A stretch of 64,000 nt of DNA from a virus. Of the stretch, positions 4,222 to 20,969 are shown piece by piece; the stretch's first letter is position 1, and the number at the start of each line of letters is the position of its first letter. Below the pieces are notes generated by a model. That model was not told the origin of the DNA. It was given only the letters and a program-made list of their open reading frames with translations, and did no database searches. A program made the translations under genes and the position numbers. The DNA lies in IMG/VR virus record IMGVR_UViG_3300033148_006102, positions 64,001-128,000 of that record; one strand, written 5' to 3'.

Positions 4222-4232
4222 ACTTCCGACAT

Positions 4233-6821: not shown

Positions 6822-6834
6822 TAGAGGATGAACG

Positions 6835-7630: not shown

Positions 7631-7631
7631 C

Positions 7632-8208: not shown

Positions 8209-8283
8209 GGCCTCGTCGTCTAATGAACAGGACACTACCCTCCGAAGGTAGAGATCCAGGTTTGAGTCCTGGCGGGGCTACCA
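8209..8283 (+). tRNA. tRNA-Arg(CCG)
   Basis: GGCCTCG/CGGGGCT-A-CCA; loop CT-CCG-AA. Confidence 0.9.
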
Positions 8284-8297
8284 ATTGAAAGGAACAG

Positions 8298-8783
8298 ATG
8301 AAGATTTTGCCCAAGCCATATGATTGGGATATATGCATGCTTGAGATGGCGGCCACACTCGCCAAGATGAGCAAAGATACGTCGACACAGGTTGGCGCAC
8401 TGCTTGTCAGCCCTGATAAGCGGCGCATGTCAGGAGGCTACAACGGCTTTCCGACGAACATTCCCGATTATGAGGACTGGTGGAATCGACGCGAAGACAC
8501 AGAAGGTGAATTTACCAAGTACGAGCTGGTGGTCCATGCTGAGGAAAACGCCATCTGCCAAGCGCGTACGGATCTCACGGGCTGGACGCTGTACTGCACG
8601 CATCAACCATGTCTTCGGTGTTCAAGGTTGATAGCTTCGCAAGGTATTCGACGTGTTGTATGGGATGCGGGTCATGAGGTGACGCGCATGGATCTACAAA
8701 CAGAGAAGGCGCTGAAGCTTTTCGAAGAAGCGGGAATCGAAGTACACACGATTCATTACCGGGATACATATAAGGGGGCGTAG
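8298..8783 (+). CDS. dCMP deaminase family protein
   Basis: SKDTSTQVGA, GYNGFP, VHAEENAI, PCLRC motifs. Confidence 0.92.
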   Translation: MKILPKPYDWDICMLEMAATLAKMSKDTSTQVGALLVSPDKRRMSGGYNGFPTNIPDYEDWWNRREDTEGEFTKYELVVHAEENAICQARTDLTGWTLYCTHQPCLRCSRLIASQGIRRVVWDAGHEVTRMDLQTEKALKLFEEAGIEVHTIHYRDTYKGA

Positions 8784-8851
8784 CTCAACGGAATTAGAGC
8801 GCTGGTCTACGGAACCAGAGGTTGAAGGTTCGAATCCTTCCGTCCCTACCA
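8774..8851 (+). tRNA. tRNA-Arg(ACG)
   Basis: GGGGGCG/CGTCCCT-A-CCA; loop CT-ACG-GA. Confidence 0.92.
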
Positions 8852-8984
8852 TCTTGAAAGGAAACTGTGGAGAAGCAGGAAGTTGTAATCAAAGTAGTTG
8901 AAAAGGGTGGCAGCGGAATAAGTATCCTGTCGCTGCTTGGCATCGCCGGCGTACTGCCAAGCAGTATGGTTGGTATCAGTAATT

Positions 8985-9058
8985 GGCCACGTCGTCTAAT
9001 GGAAGGATACCAGGCTTTCAACCTGGAGACCGGGGATCGATACCCCGCGTGGCTACCA
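8985..9058 (+). tRNA. tRNA-Glu(TTC)
   Basis: GGCCACG/CGTGGCT-A-CCA; loop CT-TTC-AA; embedded in frame in ORF 8867-9262. Confidence 0.9.
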
Positions 9059-9076
9059 ATTTCACAAGGAGAAGGA

Positions 9077-9262
9077 ATGGCAGAAGAATATGTGACATCG
9101 TTGGTGGACAAACCATCGATTGATATTACTGCACCAAAGGCAGTACAGATCGATATTCGTGAGGATGGGAAGGTGCTCTGGATCAACGTGGACGGGATCT
9201 GTCGTTTACGTTGTTGTCAGATTGAGCTCCTTGAAGTTGAAGACAGGCGAACGAAGAAATGA
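9077..9262 (+). CDS. Small hypothetical protein (in frame with an upstream GTG at 8867)
   Basis: AAGGAGAAGGA SD before ATG 9077. Confidence 0.6.
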   Translation: MAEEYVTSLVDKPSIDITAPKAVQIDIREDGKVLWINVDGICRLRCCQIELLEVEDRRTKK

Positions 9263-9567
9263 AGATGTATATTTTGGTCAAGGAGGATGTGCGCTTAGGC
9301 CTTGCCGCCGTAAGTATCGCGCACGCTGCCATGGCCGCCTATTTGGCATACAAAGACACGCCAGAAGTAAAAGAATGGCTCGCCGGTCCTTTCTACAAAG
9401 TTGTGTGTAAAGTGACTGCGCAAGAGATGGAGCAGGCTAAGGACGCCGGGGACTATGTCAGGATCACAGATTCAAACTATGCGGATGGGACTGTGATAAT
9501 TGCACTGGCATTCAAGCCGCGGGAAGAATACCCGAAGGCGTTCAAATACTTCAAGCTTTTCAAATAG
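9259..9567 (+). CDS. Peptidyl-tRNA hydrolase 2 (PTH2)-like protein
   Basis: MYILVKEDV...AVSIAHAA...FYKVVCKV...ALAFKPR pattern of PTH2-fold proteins. Confidence 0.75.
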   Translation: MKMYILVKEDVRLGLAAVSIAHAAMAAYLAYKDTPEVKEWLAGPFYKVVCKVTAQEMEQAKDAGDYVRITDSNYADGTVIIALAFKPREEYPKAFKYFKLFK

Positions 9568-9642
9568 GTCGCGTGGCGCAACAGGGAGCGCATCAGCATG
9601 ACACGCTGAAGGTTAGAGGTTCGATTCCTCTCGTGGCCACCA
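9567..9642 (+). tRNA. tRNA-Val(GAC)
   Basis: GGTCGCG/CGTGGCC-A-CCA; loop AT-GAC-AC. Confidence 0.88.
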
Positions 9643-9656
9643 AATTTGAGGAAAAC

Positions 9657-9905
9657 ATGCTAGAACCACAGAAGACAAAACACATCAAAGAATACCCAGT
9701 CACCATAGAAACCATATTTCCTTTGGATACGTTTGACGTGCGATGGACAGAAGGTCCGGCGACGCAGCGCGTAAAGATTCGACAGGTAGAAACAGGAATC
9801 TATTTGATGTGCGACAACGATGTGCGCCCGCTCGAGGTCACAATTCCTTGGGAACGATTCTTCAATAAAATTGAAGAGCTCGTATTATCGAGCAAGCCGA
9901 TATAA
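9657..9905 (+). CDS. Hypothetical protein
   Basis: GAGGA SD and ATG 9657; ORF-track start 9573 lies inside the tRNA. Confidence 0.6.
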   Translation: MLEPQKTKHIKEYPVTIETIFPLDTFDVRWTEGPATQRVKIRQVETGIYLMCDNDVRPLEVTIPWERFFNKIEELVLSSKPI

Positions 9906-9981
9906 GCCCGCATAGCTCAACTGGGAGAGCGCCTGACTTACATTCAGGAGGTTGGGAGTTCGAAACTCTCTGTGGGCACCA
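9906..9981 (+). tRNA. tRNA-Val(TAC)
   Basis: GCCCGCA/TGTGGGC-A-CCA; loop CT-TAC-AT. Confidence 0.9.
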
Positions 9982-9982
9982 T

Positions 9983-10060
9983 GGCCGCATCGTCTAGTCT
10001 GGCTCAGGATACTGCCCTCTCAAGGCAGAGACGAGGGTTCAAATCCCTCTGCGGCTACCA
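9983..10060 (+). tRNA. tRNA-Glu(CTC)
   Basis: GGCCGCA/TGCGGCT-A-CCA; loop CT-CTC-AA. Confidence 0.9.
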
Positions 10061-10078
10061 CAATTTTGAGAAAGGAAA

Positions 10079-10154
10079 AGCCCCGTAGCTTAATTGGAAA
10101 AGCGTCCGCCTCCTAAGTGGTCAGATCTCGGTTCGACTCCGGGCGGGGCCGCCA
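10079..10154 (+). tRNA. tRNA-Arg(CCT)
   Basis: Loop CT-CCT-AA, T-loop TTCGACT, GCCA end; 1:72 mismatch. Confidence 0.82.
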
Positions 10155-10159
10155 ATAAC

Positions 10160-10435
10160 ATGACACACAAATTCATCAAAGAAAAAATAGAACCAAAACT
10201 TGCGGAGCTTGAAGCGAAGTTTCCGCGACGTTCAAAAGTGAGAGTGCGGAGCGCGCCTTGGGAATACCCGCATTGGCAGCGCATAGGGCACGTAGTTGAC
10301 TATGACGTGCGACACAGCGCAAATGATAGTTTGCGTGGTGTGATCAAGATTGTCGCACAGGATGTAGATCCTTGGTATGCATGGGAAGAGGATGTTGAGA
10401 TTCTTTGGGATGCGCCATCTGGGACTTTACCATAA
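10160..10435 (+). CDS. Hypothetical protein
   Basis: ATG just after the tRNA-Arg CCA within ORF-track 10094-10435. Confidence 0.55.
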   Translation: MTHKFIKEKIEPKLAELEAKFPRRSKVRVRSAPWEYPHWQRIGHVVDYDVRHSANDSLRGVIKIVAQDVDPWYAWEEDVEILWDAPSGTLP

Positions 10436-10444
10436 TCACAGAAT

Positions 10445-10520
10445 GCCGCTGTCGTTCAACGGAATAGGACATCCGCCTTCTAAGCGGAGAATCGGGGTTC
10501 GAATCCCTGCAGCGGTACCA
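10445..10520 (+). tRNA. tRNA-Arg(TCT)
   Basis: GCCGCTG/CAGCGGT-A-CCA; loop CT-TCT-AA. Confidence 0.92.
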
Positions 10521-10521
10521 G

Positions 10522-10593
10522 GGCACACCCGCATGGTGCGGACTTGCCTCTCATAAGGGCAAAGATTGAGTTCGATTCTCAGGTGTGCCACCA
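10522..10593 (+). tRNA. tRNA-Ile2 or Met (CAT), short D-loop type
   Basis: GGCACAC/GTGTGCC-A-CCA; D-arm CCGCA-TGG-TGCGG; loop CT-CAT-AA. Confidence 0.8.
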
Positions 10594-10684
10594 AATTTCT
10601 CTTGCAACGGTGAATCGGCATAATAGGATTCACGCAGGACTTTATTTTGCCGGAACAGTCCGCCGGCTTACAAAGGAGATCGCA

Positions 10685-12082
10685 ATGATGCATCACAGTA
10701 ACTGTGTGGTCACGCTCTGTGACCAGGACAACCGCCCATTCAGAGAATACAGCCACCACCGCGAAGGCGACGCCTCTCGCGCTAAGGTTAGTATTTCGTA
10801 CGGAACTGAGTACAAGTTCATGTTCCGTATCAGGGACCATCTTCGCCGGCGCGTCGAGTTCACGATCGACGGGTCGCAGGTAGGCGAGCTCATCTTCGAG
10901 GGTAACTCGCAGACCTATCTCGAGCGCTTCATCGACAGCGCACGCAAGTTCAAGGTCGTACATCCGGAGAGTAGCGAGTGCCAGGATCCGGGTAATCCGA
11001 AGAACGGCCAAGTCGAATTGACGGTATGGACAGAGAAGGCGCCGCCTCCGCCACCACCAAGGCCTGCGCGGCGTGCATTCCGCAGCCGTGGTATCACGGG
11101 ACAGACCATAGGTTGTTCTGGTATGAACAGCCCCGTCTTTGGTTCTTCTGCAGGCTCACTGGGATCCGCAGGTCCTGAATATGAGATGTTGACCAACGGC
11201 GCGGCCGCAACAGGCGAGGGCGGTTACTCGAATCAGGAATTTGGGTCGACTACCTGGCGCGGCGACGCAGGTGAGCCGATTACCTTCCAGTTCAAGATTA
11301 TGGGGAAGGAAGATGAGCATGCGCCGAACAGTAAGTTCTTCTACTGTGCGAAGTGCGGTGATCAGGTTCCTGTAGGCTCTAATTATTGCGGCAGGTGTGG
11401 TGCGCATATAGCAAGCATGAATCCTGACGGGTGCACGATTCATCTCGGCATCGTGCTTGATGAGTCGTCATCTATGGAAGGCGACTGGGATATGACGATC
11501 GACGCGATCAACGAGTATCTCGATACGCTGCAGGGTGACGACCACCGATACAGGGTCTCGATCACAGCCTTCAATACGGTGAGTCGTCCGGTCTTTCATG
11601 CGACGGATCTGACGAAGGATGTCCGGATAAGTCGGCACAACTACCGGCCTAACGGTATGACGGCGTTGTACGACGCGATCGCGGATGGTATCGGTAGCCT
11701 CGAAGACAGCGTATGGGATTATGACGGCAAGGCCATGCTGGTGATCATGACAGATGGCCAAGAGAATAGCTCCAGGAACTTCAGCCTTGACCGGATCCGT
11801 AAGTTGATCTCGAGCAAAGAACGCGATGGCAACTGGACGTTTGTCTACATGGGATCGCACAACGATGCTTGGAAGCATGGCAGCGCGCTCGGAATTAGTA
11901 AGGCGAATGTCATGCAGTTTGATCAGGCACAGGCGCAGCCGTTGATGCGCGCGTTTGGTGCAAGTACGCAGGCATATGCCAGCAGCGCGGATGCAAACTC
12001 GCAGGCCATCTTCGCGTCGAATAAAGCGGATTACAAGAATATCGGCGCAACGGCGATAGACGATCATAAGGCGGATTGTTAA
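10685..12082 (+). CDS. Multi-domain protein: N-terminal unknown domain, Zn-ribbon, C-terminal vWA domain
   Basis: AAAGGAG SD; CAKC..CGRC; VLDESSSM (DxSxS MIDAS), TALYDAI, VIMTDGQENSS. Confidence 0.8.
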   Translation: MMHHSNCVVTLCDQDNRPFREYSHHREGDASRAKVSISYGTEYKFMFRIRDHLRRRVEFTIDGSQVGELIFEGNSQTYLERFIDSARKFKVVHPESSECQDPGNPKNGQVELTVWTEKAPPPPPPRPARRAFRSRGITGQTIGCSGMNSPVFGSSAGSLGSAGPEYEMLTNGAAATGEGGYSNQEFGSTTWRGDAGEPITFQFKIMGKEDEHAPNSKFFYCAKCGDQVPVGSNYCGRCGAHIASMNPDGCTIHLGIVLDESSSMEGDWDMTIDAINEYLDTLQGDDHRYRVSITAFNTVSRPVFHATDLTKDVRISRHNYRPNGMTALYDAIADGIGSLEDSVWDYDGKAMLVIMTDGQENSSRNFSLDRIRKLISSKERDGNWTFVYMGSHNDAWKHGSALGISKANVMQFDQAQAQPLMRAFGASTQAYASSADANSQAIFASNKADYKNIGATAIDDHKADC

Positions 12083-12127
12083 CGTTTTCCGGCCCCAAAG
12101 CATAAGTAGTGACGGGCTCTTGACTTT

Positions 12128-12637
12128 GTGATGCACCTGTGTTTTACTCGGCGCATGAAAAAGTTCAAGAGCCCAGCTAAGCACCAAACACCGTTATATC
12201 GAGCACGATGTGCGTATCGTGATATGTCACGTCGTTGCGGCAATCCTAACGGAAAGAATCCAGCATATGTTGATGTTGAACTCCGAATGACGATGGAAGC
12301 ATGGCTGGAGTGGTCGCTGCCGCATTACGAAAAGTTTATAGCTGAAAACCCCGGTGTGTCGCCAAGCGTATCGCGTAACGGCGATGTAGGTCATTATGAA
12401 ATCGGGAACCTGGAAATCGTGTCTTTACAAGAAAATCGTCGACGACAGAAGACGAAGTTGTTGGTGCGACCAAACGGTACGAAGCTTTGTTGTACGTGCA
12501 GGGTGGTGCAGCCAAAAGAAAATTTTTGTAAGAACAGAACACGCGCAGATGGCTTGAATCACGAGTGTCGTAGCTGTCGCGCCATTCGTGTGCGTGAATG
12601 GCGCGCAAAGAAAAAGAAGGCTCCTACTCCTAGATAG
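12128..12637 (+). CDS. HNH-type homing endonuclease
   Basis: MSRRCGNP...SVSRNGDVGHYEIGNLEIV plus C-terminal CCTC..CRSC; stop lies in the tRNA-Lys D-loop. Confidence 0.7.
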   Translation: MMHLCFTRRMKKFKSPAKHQTPLYRARCAYRDMSRRCGNPNGKNPAYVDVELRMTMEAWLEWSLPHYEKFIAENPGVSPSVSRNGDVGHYEIGNLEIVSLQENRRRQKTKLLVRPNGTKLCCTCRVVQPKENFCKNRTRADGLNHECRSCRAIRVREWRAKKKKAPTPR

Positions 12638-12693
12638 CGAGGAACCTGTCTCTTAAACAGGGAAGCGGCGTGCAAGTCGTCGAGGAGCCACCA
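12619..12693 (+). tRNA. tRNA-Lys(CTT)
   Basis: GGCTCCT/AGGAGCC-A-CCA; loop CT-CTT-AA; T-loop TGCAAGT. Confidence 0.85.
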
Positions 12694-12701
12694 ACATATA
12701 A

Positions 12702-12776
12702 GGGCTCATAGTTCAATTCGTAGAACAGCTGACTCATAATCAGCCGATCTCGGTGCAAATCCGGGTGAGCCCACCA
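12702..12776 (+). tRNA. tRNA-Met(CAT), elongator-like
   Basis: GGGCTCA/TGAGCCC-A-CCA; loop CT-CAT-AA. Confidence 0.88.
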
Positions 12777-12798
12777 TCGCTTTCCTTGAAAGGATGGG

Positions 12799-13263
12799 AT
12801 GTCATATACATACGAAACTCTTGTTGAAGTTCAATGTTATAAGTGTGGGATTCGCTTTGGACTGATCCAGAGCTATTACGATCTGCGGAAGCGTGATAAG
12901 AAAGAGTGGTATTGTCCGAACGGCCATACACAGTATTTCATAGGTGAAACTGCTGAACAACGGTTACGCCGTGAATTGCGCGCGGAGGAAGCAAAACACA
13001 GGAAAACCAAGCAAACACTGAAGACACAGCAGACAAGGACTGCAAATTATAGGGAAGACAACGACGCTAAGGATCGCCAGATGATTTCCTTGCGTGGCAC
13101 GATAACCATGTTGCGCCGATACATGAAGGATGGTAAATGTCCGTGTTGTCACAAGACAGTTGATGATTTACCGGGGCATCTAAAAGAAAAGCATCCCCAT
13201 TTCATGGCGCCGGTGCAACCCAAGAAAGAGAAGGAATGCCAAAACCAGAACAAGAACGAGTGA
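12799..13263 (+). CDS. Cys/His-rich coiled-coil hypothetical protein
   Basis: GAAAGGA SD; CYKC, CPNGH, CPCC...HLKEKH. Confidence 0.7.
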   Translation: MSYTYETLVEVQCYKCGIRFGLIQSYYDLRKRDKKEWYCPNGHTQYFIGETAEQRLRRELRAEEAKHRKTKQTLKTQQTRTANYREDNDAKDRQMISLRGTITMLRRYMKDGKCPCCHKTVDDLPGHLKEKHPHFMAPVQPKKEKECQNQNKNE

Positions 13264-13508
13264 ACCTCAAACTGGAGCTGACAGGCCTGCGGGAGTGCGA
13301 TGCGGTCAGTATTGTCAAGCTGATGTGCATGATGAACTACTTCGGCTCGGCCGGTTGCTCGCGAACCATCAAGCTGTTCGTGGACGGCGACGGCGCATTT
13401 AATTTCGGTCGCGTGCTGGTCGACGGCGAGGAAGTATCACGCAAGGAGCGGCTGAAGCTGATTGGGGAATATGACAAGGAAGATGGGCTGGACTTCGCGT
13501 TCGATTAG
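13236..13508 (+). CDS. Hypothetical protein
   Basis: AAGGA SD; last base of the stop is +1 of tRNA-Lys(TTT). Confidence 0.65.
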   Translation: MPKPEQERVNLKLELTGLRECDAVSIVKLMCMMNYFGSAGCSRTIKLFVDGDGAFNFGRVLVDGEEVSRKERLKLIGEYDKEDGLDFAFD

Positions 13509-13584
13509 GGAGCGTGGCGCAATGGTATAGCGCATCGGTCTTTTAAACCGAGGGTTGTGGGTTCGAGTCCCACCGCTCCCACCA
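13508..13584 (+). tRNA. tRNA-Lys(TTT)
   Basis: GGGAGCG/CGCTCCC-A-CCA; loop CT-TTT-AA. Confidence 0.93.
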
Positions 13585-13585
13585 T

Positions 13586-13660
13586 TGGCGCGTAGTGTAA
13601 TTGGGAACACGGCAGACTCTGGATCTGCAGTAGAGGGTTCGATTCCTTCCGCGCCAACCA
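13586..13660 (+). tRNA. tRNA-Gln(CTG)
   Basis: TGGCGCG/CGCGCCA-A-CCA; loop CT-CTG-GA. Confidence 0.92.
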
Positions 13661-13695
13661 AATTTATGGCCGTTCAGATGGACGGAGAAAGGAAG

Positions 13696-14289
13696 ATGAT
13701 GAAGCGGAACGTACTATTGTTAAACAAGAATTGGCAGCCGATCGCGTCGGCGCCGTGGAGAACTGCGGTAAAGATTGTGATTCGCGGCCATGGGTACGTC
13801 GTGGATCATCGAACTTTTGAACGCTTGGATTGGGTAGCTTGGGTCGCTACGCATTCGGCCGGTATCGATGCGGATGTAGACCGGAGGAGATACATCCAAA
13901 CTGGTGTACGGTTAATCGAATGTCCGAAAGTAGTGACCCTTGCCCGATTCGGCGGTTTACCCAAGCGTCGCCTGGCGTTCAGCCGTAACGGCATTTATGC
14001 CAGAGACAGCCATCGTGGTAAGCCGCAGTGTCAGTACTGCGGATCTTACCCAACTGGTAGAAGCCTGACGTTGGATCACGTTATCCCGCGGGCGCAGGGC
14101 GGAAAGACGCAGTGGGAGAATTGTGTTGTGGCCTGCGAAAAATGCAATATGCTCAAAGCAGATCGCACACCAGAACAAGCAGGCATGCGCCTGTTGAGTA
14201 AGCCTAAACGGCCAGAAGTTTTCCAAGCGTTGCTTGGCGAACTCGAACCGGAATGGGAAGTGTTTGTGAAGCAAGGAAATACAGCATGA
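13696..14289 (+). CDS. HNH endonuclease (McrA/HNH_5-like)
   Basis: VLLLNKNWQPI...CQYCG...LTLDHVIPRAQGG...NCVVACEKCNMLKADRTPEQAGM. Confidence 0.9.
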   Translation: MMKRNVLLLNKNWQPIASAPWRTAVKIVIRGHGYVVDHRTFERLDWVAWVATHSAGIDADVDRRRYIQTGVRLIECPKVVTLARFGGLPKRRLAFSRNGIYARDSHRGKPQCQYCGSYPTGRSLTLDHVIPRAQGGKTQWENCVVACEKCNMLKADRTPEQAGMRLLSKPKRPEVFQALLGELEPEWEVFVKQGNTA

Positions 14290-14471
14290 ATGGGACTGAG
14301 CTGAGAGAATACATACGGAAGCAGGTCCGCAGGTTCCATTACATGAGCCTGTGGGATCTTGTCAGTGAACGAAGTAGCCTACCCAGAAATGGAATGCTAC
14401 ATCGAATCCTGGGACACGTGATTGATTACCGACTCTTGGAGTCGGCGCGACAAAGAGCAGGTACAACGTAG
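14286..14471 (+). CDS. Small hypothetical protein
   Basis: ATGA overlap with the HNH stop; TAG overlaps tRNA-Trp +1/+2. Confidence 0.5.
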   Translation: MNGTELREYIRKQVRRFHYMSLWDLVSERSSLPRNGMLHRILGHVIDYRLLESARQRAGTT

Positions 14472-14541
14472 GTCGGGCGCTGGGTCGCAGGACGGTCTCC
14501 AAAATCGTCCTTGGTGGGTTCGATTCCCACCCGGCCTGCCA
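14470..14541 (+). tRNA. tRNA-Trp(CCA), minimal D-arm
   Basis: AGGTCGG/CCGGCCT-G-CCA; 7-bp anticodon stem; loop CT-CCA-AA. Confidence 0.82.
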
Positions 14542-14558
14542 ACAATTTTGGAGGTAAC

Positions 14559-14759
14559 GTGGAATTTGAATATGAATGCAAACTTTGCGGAGCGATCGTC
14601 AAACTAGCGGATCTTGATAAACATCTTGAAGAGGAGCATTGGCTCTCTGCGGATGTTAAAGCTGCGCCCAAGAGTGAGTTCTATAAGCTCCACCTCGAGG
14701 GAGATTGTTATGCGATTGCGGCAGACAGCCTGCCAAAAATAAACGGTTCTGTGGCATAA
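14559..14759 (+). CDS. Small C2H2-like Zn-finger protein
   Basis: GGAGG SD, GTG start; CKLC...HLEEEH. Confidence 0.6.
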   Translation: MEFEYECKLCGAIVKLADLDKHLEEEHWLSADVKAAPKSEFYKLHLEGDCYAIAADSLPKINGSVA

Positions 14760-14818
14760 GACTGTGTAAGGGCAATCTTATGTGGGATGGCCCGTAATGT
14801 AACGGCTAGCACATGGAA

Positions 14819-14893
14819 TGCGGGATCGTTCAATTGGTAGGACACCTGACTTTGAATCAGGCAATGAGAGTTCAAATCTCTCTCCCGCAGCCA
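14819..14893 (+). tRNA. tRNA-Gln(TTG)
   Basis: TGCGGGA/TCCCGCA-G-CCA; loop CT-TTG-AA. Confidence 0.92.
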
Positions 14894-14907
14894 AAAAAGG
14901 AATAGCG

Positions 14908-15399
14908 ATGAAAAAACACAGTCATGGGAAATACGTGATGTTAGTGTTTTCCGATGGTACACGTGTTCTAGAACATCGCTATGTGATGGCGCGACATATT
15001 GGTCGGAAACTACATAGTGATGAAGTGGTGCATCATCGGAACGGAGACGGAAAAGATAATCGTCTACGCAATTTACGGTTATGGTCTTCGAACAGTGAAC
15101 ATACACAACATCACGCGCGGGAGCGTAGTCGAAGTGTCACATGCATGACCTGTGGTAGGTCCTTTGTGTTGAGCCTGGGCGAGTATACGCGCAGGAAACG
15201 TCGAGTAAAACATGGTTTGTACTGCTCACGCTCGTGTGCAGCGCGTTCACCATATACGCGGCGCGCGGAAAGCAAAATTGGTGATTACATACAGCTGTGT
15301 AAAGATTTACCAGGTATATCGATCAATGAAGCAGCAAGTATTCTGAGGGTTTGTCGTAGGACCATATGTAATTGGCGACGACGCCTGAAGAACAATTAA
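14908..15399 (+). CDS. HNH homing endonuclease (HNH_3-like) with C-terminal HTH
   Basis: EHRYVMARHIGRKL...VVHHRNGDGKDNRLRNL. Confidence 0.88.
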   Translation: MKKHSHGKYVMLVFSDGTRVLEHRYVMARHIGRKLHSDEVVHHRNGDGKDNRLRNLRLWSSNSEHTQHHARERSRSVTCMTCGRSFVLSLGEYTRRKRRVKHGLYCSRSCAARSPYTRRAESKIGDYIQLCKDLPGISINEAASILRVCRRTICNWRRRLKNN

Positions 15400-15435
15400 C
15401 TTTCTTTTGAATCTTTCGTCAAAGGAGAACGAAGA

Positions 15436-17031
15436 ATGGCGAACAAGTCAATTTTCAGCACCCAGCGGGGGCCTGTACATCGACAGTACGGGGAAAGTGT
15501 GAAGACCGTTGATACGGTCAATGAGGCAGGCGGAGAGGCTTACAGCTTCACAGCAAAGTCTGCATTGGCGCAGTTGGCATCGACGGGCTGCTTTGGCAAC
15601 ACGTTCTATGTGAATGCCAAGAGTCAGCTTGACAAGGTTCAGGAATTGTTGCCACAGGTTGACAGCGAGTTTTTGGCCAAGCTGGCCGTATATGCCCGCC
15701 AGAAGGGTTACATGAAGGACATGCCGGCGCTCATGCTCGCGTATCTCTTCGCGCATGCGAAGGATTCTGCGACAGTTGGCGCGTATTTCAAGGCAGCGTT
15801 CCCGGAGGTCATGGACAATGGCCGTATGTTGCGAAACTTTGTCCAGATCATCCGTAGTGGCGTCACCGGGCGTAAGTCGTTCGGTACGGCCGGCAAGCGT
15901 GTGATCCAGGACTGGTTGACTAACCGGTCATACTGGAAGTTGTTCGGCGAAGCAGTTGGCAATGATCCGTCGATGTGTGATGTGCTCAAGATGACGCGGC
16001 CGCATCCAAAGGATGATGAGCAGCGTGCATTGTTTGGTTACATCACTGATGCGAAGGAAGGTTGGGACCGCGAGGCTCTGCCGGACTTCGTGAAGGAATT
16101 TGAGGCCTTCAAGCAGGATCAGACCAAACCTGTACCGAACGTTTCATTCGAACGGTTGTCTGCCCTTCCGCTTGGAAAGGAACACTGGATCGAGATCGCC
16201 AAGAAGGCGACTTGGTTCCAGACGCTCAAATCTCTTAACACGTACAAGCGTCATGGGGCGCTTGAGCATTCTGATGTTGTCGACATTGTCGCTGAGCGTT
16301 TGGCAGATCTTGAGTTGGTCAAGAAGGCCAAGGTATTTCCGTACCAGATCTTTGTGGCTTACAAGGCCGCGAATGACCTGCCACGGAAGATTACTAATGC
16401 GCTGCAGGATGCGCTGGAGCACGCGCTCCGAAACATCCCATTTTATGAGGGCCAGGTTTACATCTTCCCAGATGTTTCCGGCTCAATGTTATGGGGTAAC
16501 TTGACAGGTCATTCGCAGAGTTCAATTCGTTGTATTGACGTGGCGGCATTGATCACCGCGGCGATCATGAAGACGAACTATCTGGCGGAAGTACTTCCGT
16601 TTGATACACGCGTGCATGATGCGAAGTCATTGAATCATCGTGATTCAGTAGTACGCAACGCAGAGATCTTGTCGCGCTTTGGCGGTGGCGGAACGTACTG
16701 CGAGCTTCCGCTGCGTGAACTGAACGACCGTAACGCGAAGGGCGACCTGTTAATCTACGTCTCGGATAACGAGTCGTGGGTCGGCGCCGGCTATCGCAGC
16801 CATACAGGCTTGCTCAATGAGTGGGCGAAGTTCAAGCAGCGTAACCGGCAGGCCAAGATGGTCTGCATTGATCTGCAGGCTAACACCAGCACGCAGGCAA
16901 CGGATACGCCGGACATCTTGAATGTCGGTGGATTCTCTGATCAGGTGTTCAACGTTATCGACGCCTTTTTGAAGGGTGGATCTGATAAGGAACATTGGGT
17001 CAAGGAAATCGAGAAAGTTTATCTAGGATAG
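15436..17031 (+). CDS. rsr: Ro60/TROVE RNA-binding protein (Rsr)
   Basis: NEAGGEAY, LAQLASTGCFGNTFY, YARQKGYMKDMP, MLRNFVQIIRSG, vWA DVSGSM, SDNESW, LNVGGFSDQVF. Confidence 0.95.
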   Translation: MANKSIFSTQRGPVHRQYGESVKTVDTVNEAGGEAYSFTAKSALAQLASTGCFGNTFYVNAKSQLDKVQELLPQVDSEFLAKLAVYARQKGYMKDMPALMLAYLFAHAKDSATVGAYFKAAFPEVMDNGRMLRNFVQIIRSGVTGRKSFGTAGKRVIQDWLTNRSYWKLFGEAVGNDPSMCDVLKMTRPHPKDDEQRALFGYITDAKEGWDREALPDFVKEFEAFKQDQTKPVPNVSFERLSALPLGKEHWIEIAKKATWFQTLKSLNTYKRHGALEHSDVVDIVAERLADLELVKKAKVFPYQIFVAYKAANDLPRKITNALQDALEHALRNIPFYEGQVYIFPDVSGSMLWGNLTGHSQSSIRCIDVAALITAAIMKTNYLAEVLPFDTRVHDAKSLNHRDSVVRNAEILSRFGGGGTYCELPLRELNDRNAKGDLLIYVSDNESWVGAGYRSHTGLLNEWAKFKQRNRQAKMVCIDLQANTSTQATDTPDILNVGGFSDQVFNVIDAFLKGGSDKEHWVKEIEKVYLG

Positions 17032-17037
17032 GAATTT

Positions 17038-17177
17038 GGGGCGAATGCGGACGGGATTACATTGATTCATAATCCGTTGGTCGGAGGTTCGAATCCTTCC
17101 CTCGCCACCACTATGGCGAGGTAGCTCAGTCTGGTAGAGCAGCGTATATGTCAAATCTCGTCGATTCTCGTCGCCCC
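17038..17177 (+). ncRNA. yrlA: YrlA-like Y RNA with permuted tRNA module
   Basis: GGGGCGA/TCGCCCC closing stem; T-arm, acceptor 3' strand with ACCA, acceptor 5' strand, D-arm in permuted order; directly after rsr. Confidence 0.85.
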
Positions 17178-17196
17178 ATCCTTTTCCTTCTTATTT

Positions 17197-17273
17197 GGGT
17201 GAATGCCGGTATGGGAGTACATTTCTGCGTGTAATGCTGAACCATGACCACTCTCTACCATCTTTCGTCACCC
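17197..17273 (+). ncRNA. Short Y-RNA-like RNA 2
   Basis: GGGTGA/TCACCC stem; shared GAATGC..TACATT and TCGTC motifs. Confidence 0.75.
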
Positions 17274-17285
17274 ACCCTTTTGAAA

Positions 17286-17353
17286 TGGCCGAATGCCGAT
17301 TGGACTACATTGTATCCATCACAAACAACGTCTAATCATAAGCTCGTCGGCCA
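17286..17353 (+). ncRNA. Short Y-RNA-like RNA 3
   Basis: TGGCCGA/TCGGCCA stem; GAATGC..TACATT; inner GATTGGAC/GTCTAATC stem. Confidence 0.75.
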
Positions 17354-17362
17354 TTTTCTTTT

Positions 17363-17759
17363 GGGGGTGAGTAGGATCGACTGGTCGTTACTGACTGGAA
17401 GAAGCGTGTCGCAGTTGACCAACACCTGCGTTATCAAGATGGTCGCAAACCCAGATGGCAACATCCATCACATGAGCGATTACGCTCGTCCGCAGCTTCA
17501 GGCTGCATAAAGGACAGCTCCGACCAGGTAGCTACCACACCTGGCTGCGGGATACCAACCCAAGGTGAGAAACCAAACAGAGTTAGGTCGGTGAACATGC
17601 CGCAGAGGGGATTCACCATCGAAGTTACGGCGGATAAGGCGTGACCGGGCTGTCGTCGGCTCAGAGGATCGCTCGAAAACATAGATGACGACTACACACG
17701 TAGAAGTGCCGGAATGATCGATACAGCACACGGGGTGCGACTCCCCGTCACCTCCACCA
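17363..17759 (+). ncRNA. ssrA: tmRNA; tag (A)ANPDGNIHHMSDYARPQLQAA
   Basis: GGGGGTG/CACCTCC-A-CCA with G3:U70, GGATCGAC 5' motif, PK1-like pairings, tag ORF 17445-17510 ending AA. Confidence 0.93.
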
Positions 17760-17765
17760 GATTTT

Positions 17766-17873
17766 GCCGTCGAATGCGGTGATAATTATTACCCCGCACT
17801 GAAAACTATTTCGGGAATTTGGCTACCGGAAATAGGCAGTAGGAAGCCGAATAGCCTACGGGGAATCGGCGGC
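17766..17873 (+). ncRNA. Y-RNA-like RNA 4
   Basis: GCCGTCGA/TCGGCGGC stem with the CGAATGCGG motif; internal hairpins. Confidence 0.55.
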
Positions 17874-17907
17874 CCATATTGAGAGCGCACGGGGGTTCCG
17901 TGCACGC

Positions 17908-17956
17908 GCCGCGCAACGTTCATGCTCATGTCCGTTGCGCGGCTGCTTTCTTTTTT
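17908..17956 (+). terminator. Intrinsic terminator closing the Ro-Y-ssrA unit
   Basis: GCCGCGCAACG/CGTTGCGCGGC 11-bp stem followed by TGCTTTCTTTTTT. Confidence 0.8.
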
Positions 17957-17966
17957 ACGAAGAGGG

Positions 17967-17994
17967 TTGACATCCGATTTATCGAATGTACCTT
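17967..17994 (+). promoter_or_regulatory. Sigma70-like promoter
   Basis: TTGACA-16-TACCTT right after the terminator. Confidence 0.65.
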
Positions 17995-18144
17995 GAGATG
18001 TTCGCGGAGCTTAGCAGGCTTGCACTGCGATTTCGGTTTCTCTGTTCCGACCTGGCACGCTATGCGTGATTAAAAACAGAGTGGTGGACTGGGACAGTGG
18101 ATGGAGGACACCAAATCCGCCGGAAGCCTGTCACGCCCTCGTCT

Positions 18145-18176
18145 TGATCCGGGACGCTAACTTGGATCAGCTTTTT
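18145..18176 (+). terminator. Terminator-like hairpin ending a structured leader
   Basis: TGATCCGGG/CTTGGATCA followed by GCTTTTT. Confidence 0.55.
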
Positions 18177-18184
18177 GAATTTGT

Positions 18185-18262
18185 TGCGGGGTGGAGCAGT
18201 CTAGTCAGCTCGCAAGGCTCATAACCTTGAGGTCGTCAGTTCAAATCCTTCCCCCGCCACCA
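18185..18262 (+). tRNA. Initiator-like tRNA-Met(CAT) with degenerate T-stem
   Basis: TGCGGGG/CCCCGCC-A-CCA with 1:72 mismatch, fMet-type D-arm; T-stem GTCAG/CCTTC has 3 mismatches. Confidence 0.7.
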
Positions 18263-18275
18263 ATTTGGAGAAAAG

Positions 18276-18341
18276 ATGAAGACGTTACTGAGTTACTCGT
18301 CCTTGTATCTGTGCCTCTCAGGCGCGGAGGTTGGCGTGTAA
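18276..18341 (+). CDS. Putative attenuator leader peptide MKTLLSYSSLYLCLSGAEVGV
   Basis: GGAG SD; 21 codons followed by a terminator. Confidence 0.55.
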   Translation: MKTLLSYSSLYLCLSGAEVGV

Positions 18342-18366
18342 CTGGATCTTCATCACCTACCGGTCC

Positions 18367-18401
18367 CAGAAACCCGCCAGCACAACCTGGCGGGTTTTCT
18401 G
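18367..18401 (+). terminator. Intrinsic terminator
   Basis: CAGAAACCCGCCAG/CTGGCGGGTTTTCTG. Confidence 0.8.
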
Positions 18402-18433
18402 TTGAGCTCTTTGACATTTGTGACGGAACTAAT

Positions 18434-18523
18434 GGTCGGTGTTCCCCATGGCGGTCTGTAAAACCGTTGTCGTTAAATATTTGGGGTAGTAGACGAATGG
18501 TCCAATTCCATTACCGACCACCA
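18434..18523 (+). tRNA. tRNA-Tyr(GTA), no D-stem, long variable region
   Basis: GGTCGGT/ACCGACC-A-CCA; loop CT-GTA-AA; T-arm AATGG-TCCAATT-CCATT. Confidence 0.78.
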
Positions 18524-18540
18524 TTTCTTGAAAGGAAAAC

Positions 18541-19029
18541 ATGGGAAGAGAAGTACGAATGGTTCCACCCAACTGGAAGCATCCAATAGGCGATCGTGGA
18601 TACCTACAACCAATGCACGATGAGAACTTCGAAGAAGCACTTGCGGAGTGGAAGAACGGTCAGGCTGCATGGGAAGCTGGCACGCACGAAGATTTCGCAG
18701 AATATGGTGAAGACACCTCCTGGGAAGATTGGGCCGGCGAAGAGCCAGAGCCTGAATACTATCGGCCATGGAAAGCCGAAGAAGCCACGTGGTATCAGCT
18801 CTGGGAGACGGTTAGCGAAGGTACGCCGGTAACACCACCTTTTGCAACAAAGGAAGAGCTCGCGGACTACCTAGTCAATGTCGGCGAAGACTTCGGCCGG
18901 CGACAGACATGGCCGCGCGAGGCCGCTGATAACATGATGCGAGAAGAATGGGCGCCTTCGTTCATTGCTCGAGACGGCGTGATAATGGAGCCTAAGGATC
19001 CTGCTTTCTTTTCGGGAATGAAGAAATAA
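18541..19029 (+). CDS. Hypothetical protein
   Basis: GAAAGGA SD; 162 aa, Trp/acidic-rich. Confidence 0.75.
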   Translation: MGREVRMVPPNWKHPIGDRGYLQPMHDENFEEALAEWKNGQAAWEAGTHEDFAEYGEDTSWEDWAGEEPEPEYYRPWKAEEATWYQLWETVSEGTPVTPPFATKEELADYLVNVGEDFGRRQTWPREAADNMMREEWAPSFIARDGVIMEPKDPAFFSGMKK

Positions 19030-19032
19030 TAA

Positions 19033-19109
19033 GCCTCCGTAGGCGAATTGGGATAGCCGCTTGACTTAGGATCAAGTGTTTGTGAGTTCGACTTTCACCG
19101 GAGGTACCA
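19033..19109 (+). tRNA. tRNA-Leu(TAG), short variable loop
   Basis: GCCTCCG/CGGAGGT-A-CCA; loop CT-TAG-GA. Confidence 0.88.
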
Positions 19110-19114
19110 ATATT

Positions 19115-19236
19115 GAAGAGTACGGCGACGCAGCGAACTGCGGACGGGGTAGGCGGGTTGCTAGCACTTGGCCTGCACGGGCGGAATAAATCGAAAGACG
19201 CCGTGAGCAGAGGTAATTGAACTGCCCGTACTCTTC
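19115..19236 (+). ncRNA. Unknown multi-hairpin structured RNA
   Basis: 11-bp closing stem GAAGAGTACGG/CCGTACTCTTC and four internal hairpins; flanked by tRNAs. Confidence 0.6.
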
Positions 19237-19244
19237 TTCATTTT

Positions 19245-19321
19245 GGCAGCGTAGGCGAATTGGGATAGCCGCCGTACTCAAAATGCGGTGTTTGTGGGTT
19301 CGACTCCCACCGCTGCTACCA
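19245..19321 (+). tRNA. tRNA-Leu(CAA), short variable loop
   Basis: GGCAGCG/CGCTGCT-A-CCA; loop CT-CAA-AA. Confidence 0.88.
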
Positions 19322-19330
19322 CATTCAACT

Positions 19331-19413
19331 GGCTGGATGGCGGAACTGGTAGACGCGCACGGTTGAGGGCCGTGTTCCCAGGAGTGAGGGTTCGAATCCC
19401 TCTCCAGCCACCA
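19331..19413 (+). tRNA. tRNA-Leu(GAG)
   Basis: GGCTGGA/TCCAGCC-A-CCA; loop TT-GAG-GG; longer variable region. Confidence 0.88.
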
Positions 19414-19423
19414 GTTTGACGGA

Positions 19424-19500
19424 GCCTCCGTAGCCCAACTGGGAGAGGCACTTGGTTTAAGCCCAAGTCAGTGTCGGTTCGAATCCGACCGGAGGTACCA
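19424..19500 (+). tRNA. tRNA-Leu(TAA), short variable loop
   Basis: GCCTCCG/CGGAGGT-A-CCA; loop TT-TAA-GC. Confidence 0.85.
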
Positions 19501-19501
19501 A

Positions 19502-19589
19502 GGAGGTATGGCTGAGTGGAAAAGCTCCCGGTTGCTAACCGGTGGACAGGGTAACACCTGCGCAGGTTCGAATCCTGCTACCTCCGCCA
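19502..19589 (+). tRNA. tRNA-Ser(GCT)
   Basis: GGAGGTA/TACCTCC-G-CCA; long V-arm; loop TT-GCT-AA. Confidence 0.9.
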
Positions 19590-19608
19590 ATTTTCTTAAA
19601 GGAGAAAA

Positions 19609-19980
19609 GTGAAACGATATAAGCTGAACCTATCAACAAGATTAGTCGGCACGCTAAATATAGAAGCCGAATCAAAAGAAGAGGCCCTGGAAAAGGCAAA
19701 CGTACGAAGTGATAACAGTAATATCGAATGGTTGAATCACGACCAGGCAGCTGAGATCACCGGTGTTGACTGTCTGGGCGAGGCCACCATCCGCGAATAC
19801 ACCTTCACGGTTAAGCGACAGCTTCAAGGTCAATGTGAAGTAGAGGCGGCTAATGAAGACGAGGCCCGCCGAAAGCTCGACAGTATCATGGAGCATAGTG
19901 ATGGTGACATCGAATGGGATGATGATGGCTATGACATCGAAGATGTTGAAATTGAGGAATGGGAAGCTGACGAGGAGTAA
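19609..19980 (+). CDS. Acidic protein with an internally duplicated domain
   Basis: AAAGGAG SD; two copies of (R/K)Y....V/IEAxxxEEA....IEW. Confidence 0.7.
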   Translation: MKRYKLNLSTRLVGTLNIEAESKEEALEKANVRSDNSNIEWLNHDQAAEITGVDCLGEATIREYTFTVKRQLQGQCEVEAANEDEARRKLDSIMEHSDGDIEWDDDGYDIEDVEIEEWEADEE

Positions 19981-19981
19981 A

Positions 19982-20479
19982 ATGTCGGCAAAATGTAAAA
20001 CACCAAACAAAATAGATCTCAAGAAGCTCGATCTTTATCGAGTCAAATTTGAATGGAATGGTGAGACAGTTTACGGTCTTGTCGATTTGTACGATAGAGA
20101 CTCTGATGAATACGCCGAACGTGGCTTAGTACTTGTGGATCATTGTGTGCTGAGGACACGATATGCGCTACCGCCAAGTAAACTGACACCAATGAAATGT
20201 TCTTTTGAACCTGATGATGAATTTGACCAATATGTTGAGCAGCAGGCCAAAGAGGCGCAAGAGCTCCATAAATCGCTGCCGAAGGACAAGCTCTGTGTTG
20301 GCCATATGTTTTCAATCGGTGTGGGCGATGGTTATGCGTCTTATGTGGTAACAAAGGTATTCAAGAAGAATTGCGATATTGAATGGCGCGGCTTCTGTGT
20401 GGATCGTTGGACGGACCATCACTTCGGATGGGGCGGCCGCTTCCCGATCGATGAGATCATGCGGTACGTGGGACCATAG
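19982..20479 (+). CDS. Hypothetical protein
   Basis: ATG right after the previous stop, within ORF-track 19853-20479. Confidence 0.7.
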   Translation: MSAKCKTPNKIDLKKLDLYRVKFEWNGETVYGLVDLYDRDSDEYAERGLVLVDHCVLRTRYALPPSKLTPMKCSFEPDDEFDQYVEQQAKEAQELHKSLPKDKLCVGHMFSIGVGDGYASYVVTKVFKKNCDIEWRGFCVDRWTDHHFGWGGRFPIDEIMRYVGP

Positions 20480-20481
20480 CT

Positions 20482-20703
20482 TTGACGATGTACATACGCG
20501 AGTCCGCGGATGAATATAGGCCGATCTCAGATGAGGAATTCGATGAGATCAACCGCAAGTGTGATACTGTTTCAGGTGATGCAATTTGTGAAGTATGTGG
20601 AAAACCATATCGTGATCACCCTACGTTGAAGATATACCAGGATCGACACACAGCGTGGTGGTTTCCGAAGATCCTTTGCAACGGGCGCTATGGTCATACG
20701 TAG
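20482..20703 (+). CDS. Small Cys-containing protein
   Basis: CEVCGKPY..H..C; last base of the stop is +1 of tRNA-Ser(TGA). Confidence 0.6.
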   Translation: MTMYIRESADEYRPISDEEFDEINRKCDTVSGDAICEVCGKPYRDHPTLKIYQDRHTAWWFPKILCNGRYGHT

Positions 20704-20789
20704 GAGGGTACCGCTGAAGTGGTCGGCAACCGGTCTTGAAAATCGGGGTGGTGTAACAGCCAGGGGTTCGAACCCTCTACCCTCCGCCA
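20703..20789 (+). tRNA. tRNA-Ser(TGA)
   Basis: GGAGGGT/ACCCTCC-G-CCA; long V-arm; loop CT-TGA-AA. Confidence 0.9.
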
Positions 20790-20794
20790 AATTA

Positions 20795-20833
20795 CTACGC
20801 CCTCGGTGGCTAAATAGACCTCCGAGGGCGTAG
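20795..20833. repeat. 12-bp perfect inverted repeat
   Basis: CTACGCCCTCGG/CCGAGGGCGTAG with loop TGGCTAAATAGACCT. Confidence 0.7.
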
Positions 20834-20896
20834 CGAAAAGGCTCGACGCATTCTGGGAAGGTTTTTCAGATCTGTCAATTGCAATCTTTTGTACGG

Positions 20897-20969
20897 GGCC
20901 GCGATCCGCTGGGAGTGGGGTGCGTCTGCAAAACGCACAGATCAGGTTCGACTCCTGACGCGGCCTCCA
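20897..20969 (+). tRNA. tRNA-Cys(GCA), short D-loop type
   Basis: GGCCGCG/CGCGGCC-T-CCA; D-arm CCGCT-GGG-AGTGG; loop CT-GCA-AA. Confidence 0.85.

What the first reader, a model, noticed from the sequence alone, without database searches (positions are those of the whole stretch)
19115..19236. Unidentified 122-nt structured RNA between two tRNA-Leu genes
An 11-bp closing stem followed by TTCA encloses GCAG-CGAA-CTGC, an AGGC..GCCT arm with palindromic TGCTAGCA at its tip, a CACGG..CCGTG arm with a TC-GAAA-GA tetraloop, and GCAG..CTGC. It is spaced like a tRNA in the array, so flanking tRNA processing would release it. It is roughly cloverleaf-like but has no TTCGA loop, canonical anticodon loop or CCA, and I could not assign it to a known family by eye.
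Basis: partly seen in the sequence, partly recalled or inferred. Interest (0 to 1): 0.7.

Follow-up and report, generated by a model that had tools for sequence, protein, structure and literature searches.

The report
Orphan stem-closed spacer in phage tRNA operon
A 122-base stretch between two leucine tRNA genes of an uncultured 195-kb phage is closed by a perfect 11-base-pair stem and matches no known RNA family, but it has no relatives anywhere I could search, so it is only a weak candidate for an extra partner RNA of the phage's Ro60 protein.

Summary
Only the 11-bp closing inverted repeat is beyond chance. It spans the whole tRNA-to-tRNA gap, 5 nt after one tRNA and 8 nt before the next. 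The 100-nt interior folds no better than shuffled sequence (z = -0.02), and the four inner arms are one of many near-equal folds.

There is no Rfam match even at E<=10. There is no tRNA call, no second copy in the genome and no reverse transcriptase. I found no homologue in cultured phages, IMG/VR, JGI metagenomes or GTDB genomes. The phage's flanking proteins have no relative above about 55% identity, so covariation cannot be tested.

The context is informative. A Ro60/Rsr gene lies 2 kb upstream, followed by four Y-RNA-like units that share a conserved handle, plus a tmRNA. The element carries a 16-nt near-copy of the Y1 (YrlA) handle strand and two CGAA loops. It still fails a covariance model of that handle.

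Best reading (about 0.3): a spacer RNA released by tRNA processing, possibly an atypical Ro60 ligand. An inert spacer or evolutionary debris is nearly as likely.

This scan has reported phage Ro60 handle-RNA arrays on other DNA before. It has not reported this element on other DNA.

The parts
19033..19109 (+). Upstream flank: tRNA-Leu(UAG), 77 nt, encoded CCA, no long variable arm
   Evidence: ARAGORN; Rfam tRNA 53.5 bits
19110..19114 (+). 5-nt A/U-rich linker (AUAUU)
   Evidence: Sequence; unpaired in every fold
19115..19125 (+). 5' arm of the 11-bp closing stem (GAAGAGTACGG)
   Evidence: Perfect inverted repeat I20; kept in the MFE and centroid of the element and of the tRNA-element-tRNA precursor
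19129..19142 (+). Hairpin 1: CGCAG-CGAA-CUGCG, the only interior helix present in all low-energy folds
   Evidence: Suboptimal folds; centroids
19133..19148 (+). GCGAACTGCGGACGGG: 16-nt near-copy (one inserted C) of the 5' handle strand of the phage's own YrlA-like RNA (17042-17056)
   Evidence: Local alignment score 25; 17 of 3000 dinucleotide shuffles reach it; only two other loci in the 195-kb genome score as high against the four handle strands
19151..19174 (+). Proposed arm 2 (AGGC..GCCU, 16-nt loop with palindrome TGCTAGCA); weakly supported
   Evidence: Sequence; appears in some suboptimal folds only
19176..19205 (+). Proposed arm 3 (CACGG-G-CG..CG-CCGUG) with UC-GAAA-GA tip; holds the second CGAA (19192-19195)
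   Evidence: Sequence; the inner GCG/CGC part recurs in most folds
19207..19225 (+). Proposed arm 4 (GCAG-AGGUAAUUGAA-CUGC), directly abutting the closing stem
   Evidence: Sequence
19226..19236 (+). 3' arm of the closing stem (CCGTACTCTTC)
19237..19244 (+). 8-nt U-rich linker (UUCAUUUU) before the next tRNA
   Evidence: Sequence
19245..19321 (+). Downstream flank: tRNA-Leu(CAA), 77 nt, encoded CCA
15436..17031 (+). Context: phage Ro60/Rsr gene (531 aa)
   Evidence: Pfam vWA_Ro60 1.4e-14 and TROVE 2.6e-8; 45% identical to the Myxococcus phage Mx1 TROVE protein
17038..17873 (+). Context: four Y-RNA-like units sharing one handle (Y1/YrlA 17038-17178, Y1b 17196-17274, Y2 17282-17357, Y3 17766-17873) with a tmRNA (17363-17759) between Y2 and Y3
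   Evidence: Rfam YrlA 64.9 bits against a gathering score of 69; tmRNA 69.1 bits; unit delineation; handle model R2 hits

Best explanation
The 122-nt segment is a discrete spacer domain of the phage's tRNA operon. It is transcribed with the Leu/Ser/Cys tRNAs and clamped by an 11-bp terminal stem. RNase P cutting at the next tRNA, and 3' maturation of the previous one within the A/U-rich linkers, would free it as a small RNA of about 122-135 nt. This is how T4 species I and II RNAs arise from the T4 tRNA operon. The most likely role is as an atypical, diverged partner or decoy RNA for the phage's own Ro60 (Rsr) protein. It combines a 5'-3' stem with an interior that shows CGAA twice in hairpin loops. 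It also carries a near-copy of the Ro60-binding strand of the phage's YrlA-like RNA. Shown here: the stem, the slot-like placement, the lack of any known family, the Ro60/Y-RNA cluster, and the local similarity. Inferred: transcription, processing, stability and Ro60 binding.
For: The closing stem is perfect, spans the gap, and persists in the precursor fold. The linkers are 5 and 8 nt and A/U-rich. All tRNAs found in the window are on the + strand. Ro60/Rsr lies 2.08 kb upstream on the same strand. Chen et al. 2014 (PMC4201824) found at least two Y RNAs in each of three characterised bacteria; in D. radiodurans and S. Typhimurium they lie within 2 kb of rsr. They note that some eluded bioinformatic discovery. 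Segment 19133-19148 matches the Y1 handle strand as well as the true Y paralogues match each other (score 25 against 25-27). Only two other loci in the genome do so. The element meets the loose Yrl definition of Hu et al. 2025: a 5'-3' stem, a large interior, and CGAA in hairpins (PMC12135203). The T4 precedent is a transcript that yields eight tRNAs plus species I and II RNAs (PMC2330249).
Against: The covariance model R2 was built from six handle units of this phage and two rsr-linked loci. Run with filters off, it recovers Y1b and Y2 (the two units of this phage used to build it) plus the independent units Y1 and, weakly, Y3. It gives the element only 3 bits on a different register. The element lacks the conserved AUGC loop, the UACA motif and the 3' CUYGUC strand. 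Neither GNCGAAN0-1G-like site is exact (GGCGACG and AGCGAACUG). An inverted repeat followed by a T-rich tract (17908-17943), which I read as a terminator, separates the Y cluster from this operon. The interior is not thermodynamically unusual. No homologue exists, so there is no covariation, and no expression data exist.
Confidence: 0.3

Rival explanations
1. The element is an inert structured spacer or processing insulator. The terminal stem keeps the 135-nt gap folded on itself, so the two nearly identical neighbouring tRNA-Leu precursors fold independently and RNase P/E get clean single-stranded entry sites. The excised piece would then be degraded and have no function in trans.
For: Only the closing stem is beyond chance, and the interior behaves like random sequence. 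The two flanking tRNAs share a 22-nt identical D-arm segment, so mis-pairing between them is conceivable. In the precursor fold the three domains stay separate. Other gaps in the island also hold simple strong hairpins, for example 20795-20833 with z = -4.9.
Against: Other adjacent tRNAs in the array, including Leu(GAG)/Leu(UAA)/Ser, are only 1-18 nt apart and need no such spacer. This reading does not explain the match to the Y1 handle strand.
Confidence: 0.3
2. The element is evolutionary debris. It would be the decayed remnant of a duplicated Y RNA, a tRNA or a small gene left between two tRNA genes, with the inverted repeat partly fortuitous and no present function.
For: The similarity to Y1 is only a fragment, covering one strand of the handle. 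The handle model fails. The interior is not unusually structured. tRNA islands are mosaic; in Mx1 an HNH endonuclease gene lies between two tRNA-Leu genes. The phage holds other tRNA-derived oddities.
Against: A perfect 11-bp stem that exactly brackets the gap is unexpected for decaying sequence (about 1e-3 by my arithmetic). The tRNA models give no residual tRNA signal.
Confidence: 0.22
3. The segment encodes a 35-residue peptide (TTG 19113 to TGA 19220, with a hydrophobic GVGGLLALGL core). GGAGG in the 3' end of the upstream tRNA would serve as the ribosome-binding site.
For: The open frame exists. GGAGG lies 8 nt upstream of the TTG.
Against: The start codon is TTG. The putative ribosome-binding site is the tRNA acceptor stem and would be removed by tRNA maturation. 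The frame is short and ends inside the element. The start codon is buried in the closing stem. There is no homologue evidence.
Confidence: 0.05
4. The element is a mobile or template element: a MITE with 11-bp terminal inverted repeats, a retron ncRNA, or an intron remnant.
For: It has terminal inverted repeats of a typical length.
Against: It is a single copy in the genome. There is no reverse transcriptase. No copies were found in any collection. There are no intron or ribozyme hits in Rfam at E<=10. No target-site duplication is evident.
Confidence: 0.03

Closest known systems
Bacterial and phage Y RNAs bound by Ro60/Rsr: YrlA (Rfam RF02553), YrlB/Yrn2 (Chen et al. 2014, PMC4201824), Thermus phage phiLo Yrl1/Yrl2 (Hu et al. 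2025, PMC12135203)
   Same: It is encoded on the same strand about 2 kb from a Ro60 gene. Its 5' and 3' ends pair into a stem around a large interior. CGAA is displayed in hairpins. A 16-nt segment nearly matches the Ro60-binding strand of the phage's own YrlA-like RNA.
   Different: It does not score with Rfam YrlA or with a model of the handle shared by this phage's four Y units and by units in related rsr loci. It lacks an exact GNCGAAN0-1G, the AUGC loop, the UACA motif, the 3' CUYGUC strand and any tRNA-like T or D arm. It lies in the next transcription unit rather than in the rsr-Y cluster.
Phage T4 species I and II RNAs (stable RNAs of unknown function within the T4 tRNA operon; PMC2330249)
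   Same: It is a small non-tRNA RNA gene occupying a slot in a phage tRNA operon, and would be expected to be cut out of the same precursor by the tRNA processing enzymes. Its function is unknown.
   Different: Expression and stability of the present element are not shown.
Class II tRNA (Leu/Ser/Tyr) cloverleaf
   Same: Three linker lengths also match (1, 1 and 0 nt).
   Different: The terminal stem is 11 bp. There is no 7-nt anticodon loop, no T loop, no D-loop GG and no CCA. ARAGORN and the Rfam tRNA and tRNA-Sec models give nothing. The fold itself is not supported over alternatives.

Membership tests
Any Rfam 15 family (4227 models) | Covariance-model match at or near the gathering score | tested here: not met
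   There was no hit inside 19110-19244 at gathering thresholds or at E<=10 with lax filters on a 351-nt stretch.
YrlA (RF02553) | CM match including the handle and the tRNA-like T and D arms | tested here: not met
   A whole-genome search at E<=10 finds 17038-17180 (64.9 bits) and weaker sites. The only hits near the element, at window 19294-19310 and 19562-19578, are 17-nt matches of about 10 bits inside tRNAs. None lies in the element.
   With filters off, R2 scores Y1b 53.3, Y2 52.7, Y1 16.9 and Y3 8.9 bits. It finds nothing in the element at E<=10 over 24 kb. When the element is searched alone, the best score is 3.0 bits in a different register.
Bacterial Y RNA (Chen et al. 2014 criteria) | GNCGAAN0-1G motif near the 5' end | tested here: not met
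   There are two one-off variants only: GGCGACG (19124-19130) and AGCGAACUG (19132-19140).
Bacterial Y RNA (Chen et al. 2014 criteria) | Encoded near rsr (within about 2 kb) on the same strand | tested here: met
   rsr ends at 17031 and the element starts at 19115, on the same strand. A terminator-like hairpin at 17908-17943 lies between them.
Phage Yrl (Hu et al. 2025 working definition) | 5'-3' stem flanking a large interior that carries CGAA in hairpins | tested here: met
   It has an 11-bp stem, with CGAA as the loop of hairpin 1 (19134-19137) and at the tip of arm 3 (19192-19195). This definition has low specificity; two CGAA in 122 nt has p of about 0.09.
Y RNA (any) | Binds Ro60/Rsr | not testable with these tools
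   This needs EMSA or RIP with the protein of 15436-17031.
tRNA / tRNA-like | Cloverleaf with T loop, D loop and 7-nt anticodon loop; detected by ARAGORN or RF00005/RF01852 | tested here: not met
Stable RNAs of phage tRNA operons (T4 species I/II type) | Lies within a tRNA operon and is released from the common precursor | tested here: inconclusive
   The placement is met. Transcription and processing could not be tested because no sequencing run was listed.
Retron ncRNA | Adjacent reverse transcriptase | tested here: not met
   There is no RVT_1 match in the 195-kb genome.
MITE / repeated mobile element | Multiple copies | tested here: not met
   It is a single copy by BLAST and by CM.

The most novel reading that the evidence does not exclude
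The element may be the founder of an undescribed class of phage Ro60 partner RNAs. Such an RNA would be made in the tRNA operon rather than beside rsr. It would keep only the protein-contacting strand of the Y handle, presented on a hairpin together with a second CGAA loop. That could let it recruit one or two Ro60 rings, or compete with the canonical Y RNAs, under conditions that induce the tRNA operon.
Probability: 0.08. Interest if true: 0.6.

Novelty: new variant of a known kind. Interest (0 to 1): 0.3.

Why it matters
If the element is a real processed RNA, it would add to the few known non-tRNA RNAs embedded in phage tRNA operons. T4 species I and II RNAs are the classic examples, and their function is not known to me. 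If it binds the phage Ro60, it would show that Ro60 partners can be recruited from outside the rsr locus and can dispense with most of the canonical handle. As it stands it is a single unconserved sequence, and only its terminal stem is statistically unusual. Its main value is as one more testable RNA in an unusually rich island that holds Ro60, four Y-like RNAs, a tmRNA, tRNA mimics and 28 tRNAs.

Tried and rejected
- **Rfam.** Gathering and E<=10 searches found nothing in the element.
- **BLAST against phages.** blastn against 50,697 phage records gave no match for the element; the flanks matched only through tRNAs.
- **Own genome.** The element is a single copy.
- **Synteny anchors.**
  - ORF162 upstream has 809 relatives, all at or below about 55% identity, and the four contexts I looked at are not syntenic and have no tRNA calls.
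  - Rsr relatives in IMG/VR (7 loci), JGI metagenomes (17 loci) and Mx1 reach at most 50% identity.
  - Mx1 shares no flanking proteins with this region.
It found nothing in 33 loci or the window, in the whole Mx1 record, in 77 loci from a 15-mer scan, or in 4 GTDB loci.
- **Exact-word scans.**
  - Two 15-mers from the element, searched in IMG/VR, gave 54 and 77 hits consistent with chance; the extended matches I inspected lay in high-GC sequence, and R1 found no homologue among the 77.
  - The shared tRNA D-arm 20-mer gave 2 unrelated arrays.
  - A 20-mer searched in GTDB gave 4 unrelated high-GC hits.
- **Sequencing runs.** None was listed, and no RNA holder was listed.
- **Earlier scan notes.** There was no look-alike on other DNA.
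- **Retron.** There is no reverse transcriptase.
- **Intrinsic terminator.** The scan did not call one.
- **Repeated word ATTGAAGAG.** Its 7 copies lie mostly in what appears to be coding sequence, consistent with Ile-Glu-Glu codons rather than a motif.
- **Palindrome TGCTAGCA.** An 8-bp palindrome in 122 nt has p of about 0.45, so it is not evidence.
- **Twin of arm 4.** The copy at 31378-31397 lies inside a 793-aa ORF and is probably chance.

Full report
**Source and setting.** The window is bases 64001-128000 of a 195,108-bp IMG/VR virus record with direct terminal repeats. Window positions 2879-20969 form a tRNA island. It holds 28 tRNA genes, all on the + strand, and a tmRNA at 17363-17759. 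The finding lies in the 135-nt gap between tRNA-Leu(UAG) (19033-19109) and tRNA-Leu(CAA) (19245-19321).

**Observation.** The 11-nt arms at 19115-19125 and 19226-19236 are perfectly complementary. Roughly three such repeats within 200 nt are expected per 64 kb. One that brackets a whole inter-tRNA gap, leaving linkers of 5 and 8 nt, has a probability of about 1e-3 over the 13 gaps of the island by my arithmetic.

The gap folds better than shuffles (z = -2.4) and ranks among the more structured of the 13 inter-tRNA gaps I scored. That signal comes from the closing stem alone. The 100-nt interior gives z = -0.02. Dozens of different interior folds lie within 1.5 kcal/mol of the MFE.

Only hairpin 1 (CGCAG-CGAA-CUGCG) and the closing stem are stable across folds. 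Repeated ACGG(N)CG and C(G/C)CCGU words allow several mutually exclusive registers. All proposed pairs are Watson-Crick, and the minus strand folds equally well. The strand is therefore assigned only by context.

**Known families.** Rfam gives nothing in the element, even at E<=10 on a 351-nt search space. ARAGORN calls no tRNA there. There is no reverse transcriptase in the genome. There is no second copy of the element. The terminator scan makes no call.

**Homologues.** None was found.
- blastn against 50,697 phage records gave no match.
- Two IMG/VR 15-mer scans gave 54 and 77 hits at roughly the number expected by chance. The extended matches I inspected from the first lay in high-GC sequence, and model R1 found no homologue among the second set.
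- A GTDB 20-mer scan gave four unrelated hits.
- A covariance model of the element (R1) found nothing in the whole Mx1 genome, in 24 rsr loci, in ORF162 loci, or in the scan loci.

The reason is that the phage itself is an orphan. The upstream 162-aa protein has 809 relatives but none above about 55% identity. The Ro60 protein has none above 50%. Synteny is not kept in the four ORF162 contexts I examined or in Mx1. No sequencing run was listed. Conservation, covariation and expression therefore cannot be assessed. This is a lack of data, not evidence of absence.

**Context that gives a lead.** ORF 15436-17031 is a Ro60/Rsr orthologue: Pfam vWA_Ro60 and TROVE, and 45% identity to the Mx1 TROVE protein. 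Directly after it lies a YrlA-like RNA at 17038-17180, scoring 64.9 bits against a gathering score of 69.

Reading the sequence and pairing the ends shows four units: Y1 17038-17178, Y1b 17196-17274, Y2 17282-17357 and Y3 17766-17873. The tmRNA sits between Y2 and Y3. The units share a handle, though Y3 carries it only in part:
- stem A ending GA/UC;
- a 5' loop AUGC;
- stem B;
- UACA;
- a 3' loop CUYG before the stem A return strand.

Arrays with the same handle follow rsr in several metagenomic relatives (L082/L083, L086, L090, L092, L098). Stem A shows compensatory changes. This matches what Chen et al. 2014 describe for bacteria. They report a GNCGAAN0-1G motif and at least two Y RNAs per species; those of D. 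radiodurans and S. Typhimurium are encoded within 2 kb of rsr. Earlier notes of this scan describe the same pairing in other phages.

**Is the element one of them?** Three points favour it.
- It lies 2.08 kb downstream of rsr on the same strand.
- Segment 19133-19148 (GCGAACTGCGGACGGG) equals the Y1 handle strand GCGAA-TGCGGACGGG with one inserted C. This score is reached by 17 of 3000 shuffles and by only two other loci in the genome. It equals the scores between true Y paralogues.
- It fits the loose definition Hu et al. 2025 used to pick the phiLo Yrl1 and Yrl2 RNAs, which do bind phage Ro60: a 5'-3' stem around a large interior with CGAA in hairpins. The element has CGAA as the loop of hairpin 1 and again at the tip of arm 3.

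Several points count against it.
- A covariance model of the handle (R2), run without filters, recovers its two training units from this phage (Y1b, Y2) and also Y1 and, weakly, Y3. It gives the element nothing at E<=10 in 24 kb, and only 3 bits in another register when the element is searched alone.
- The AUGC loop, the UACA motif and the 3' strand are missing.
- Neither GNCGAA-like site is exact.
- An inverted repeat followed by a T-rich tract at 17908-17943, which I read as a terminator, and a promoter-like site near 17968, place the element in the next transcription unit.

So it is not a member of the handle family. At most it is a derivative or an atypical ligand.

**Mechanism proposed.** The following is inferred except where stated. 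The operon transcript folds into separate tRNA, element and tRNA domains; this much is shown in silico. RNase P would cut at the 5' end of tRNA-Leu(CAA). Endonucleolytic and exonucleolytic 3' maturation of tRNA-Leu(UAG) would act in the AUAUU linker. The stem-closed piece would be released in the way T4 species I and II RNAs come from the T4 tRNA precursor (PMC2330249). It might then bind the phage Ro60 through its handle-like strand and CGAA loops.

I give this about 0.3. An inert folding or processing spacer also gets about 0.3, and decayed remnant sequence about 0.2. These are nearly as likely, because nothing beyond the terminal stem is statistically or comparatively supported. A 35-codon TTG frame exists but is unconvincing.

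**Verdict.** The feature is real but an orphan. It is correctly described as unassigned, and its interior architecture is over-read. It is of modest interest until expression or binding is tested.

Noticed in passing
window 15436-17873: The Ro60/Rsr gene is followed by four Y-RNA-like units with a shared handle (17038-17178, 17196-17274, 17282-17357, 17766-17873). A tmRNA (17363-17759) lies between the third and fourth units. Arrays with the same handle follow rsr in loci L082/L083, L086 (6 units), L090 (5 units), L092 and L098.
   Followed up: partly
window 2963-3038: The gap between tRNA-Pro and tRNA-Gly folds into a cloverleaf-like RNA. It has a 9-bp closing stem (GCCUAGCGA/UCGCUAGGC) and three hairpins. 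The middle hairpin has a 5-bp stem and a 7-nt loop, UUGUGGU, which looks like an anticodon loop reading GUG (His). ARAGORN does not call it. It also contains GCCGAAG.
   Followed up: no
window 3142-3241: There is a weak full-length YrlA match (24.5 bits) between tRNA-Gly and tRNA-Thr. It has T-arm-like and D-arm-like hairpins and appears to be a free-standing tRNA mimic.
   Followed up: partly
window 19033-19109, 19245-19321, 19424-19500; L076 15036-15109 and 15937-16010: tRNAs with Leu anticodons UAG, CAA and UAA are 77 nt with a short variable loop and A73, so they lack the long variable arm usual for bacterial tRNA-Leu. Leu(GAG) is 83 nt. Myxococcus phage Mx1 also has 74-nt tRNA-Leu genes.
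   Followed up: no
window 20795-20833: A very stable 15-bp hairpin lies in the tRNA-Ser to tRNA-Cys gap. That gap has z = -4.9, the most structured gap of the island.
   Followed up: no
window 31378-31397: AGCAGAGTTAATTGACCTGC matches arm 4 of the element at 18 of 20 positions. No such match occurred in 100 shuffles. It lies inside a 793-aa ORF, so it is probably coincidence.
   Followed up: partly
window 4804-4839 (minus strand): The handle model R2 gives 16.2 bits (E = 0.03) to CUGGCGAAUGCA..AAUUCGUCGACAG, on the strand opposite to the 842-aa ORF at 4293-6821. This could be a mini-handle or chance.
   Followed up: no
window 17908-17990: A 17-nt inverted repeat followed by a T-rich tract (terminator-like) ends the rsr/Y/tmRNA cluster. 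TTGACA-N17-TACCTT near 17968 may start the Leu/Ser/Cys tRNA operon.
   Followed up: no
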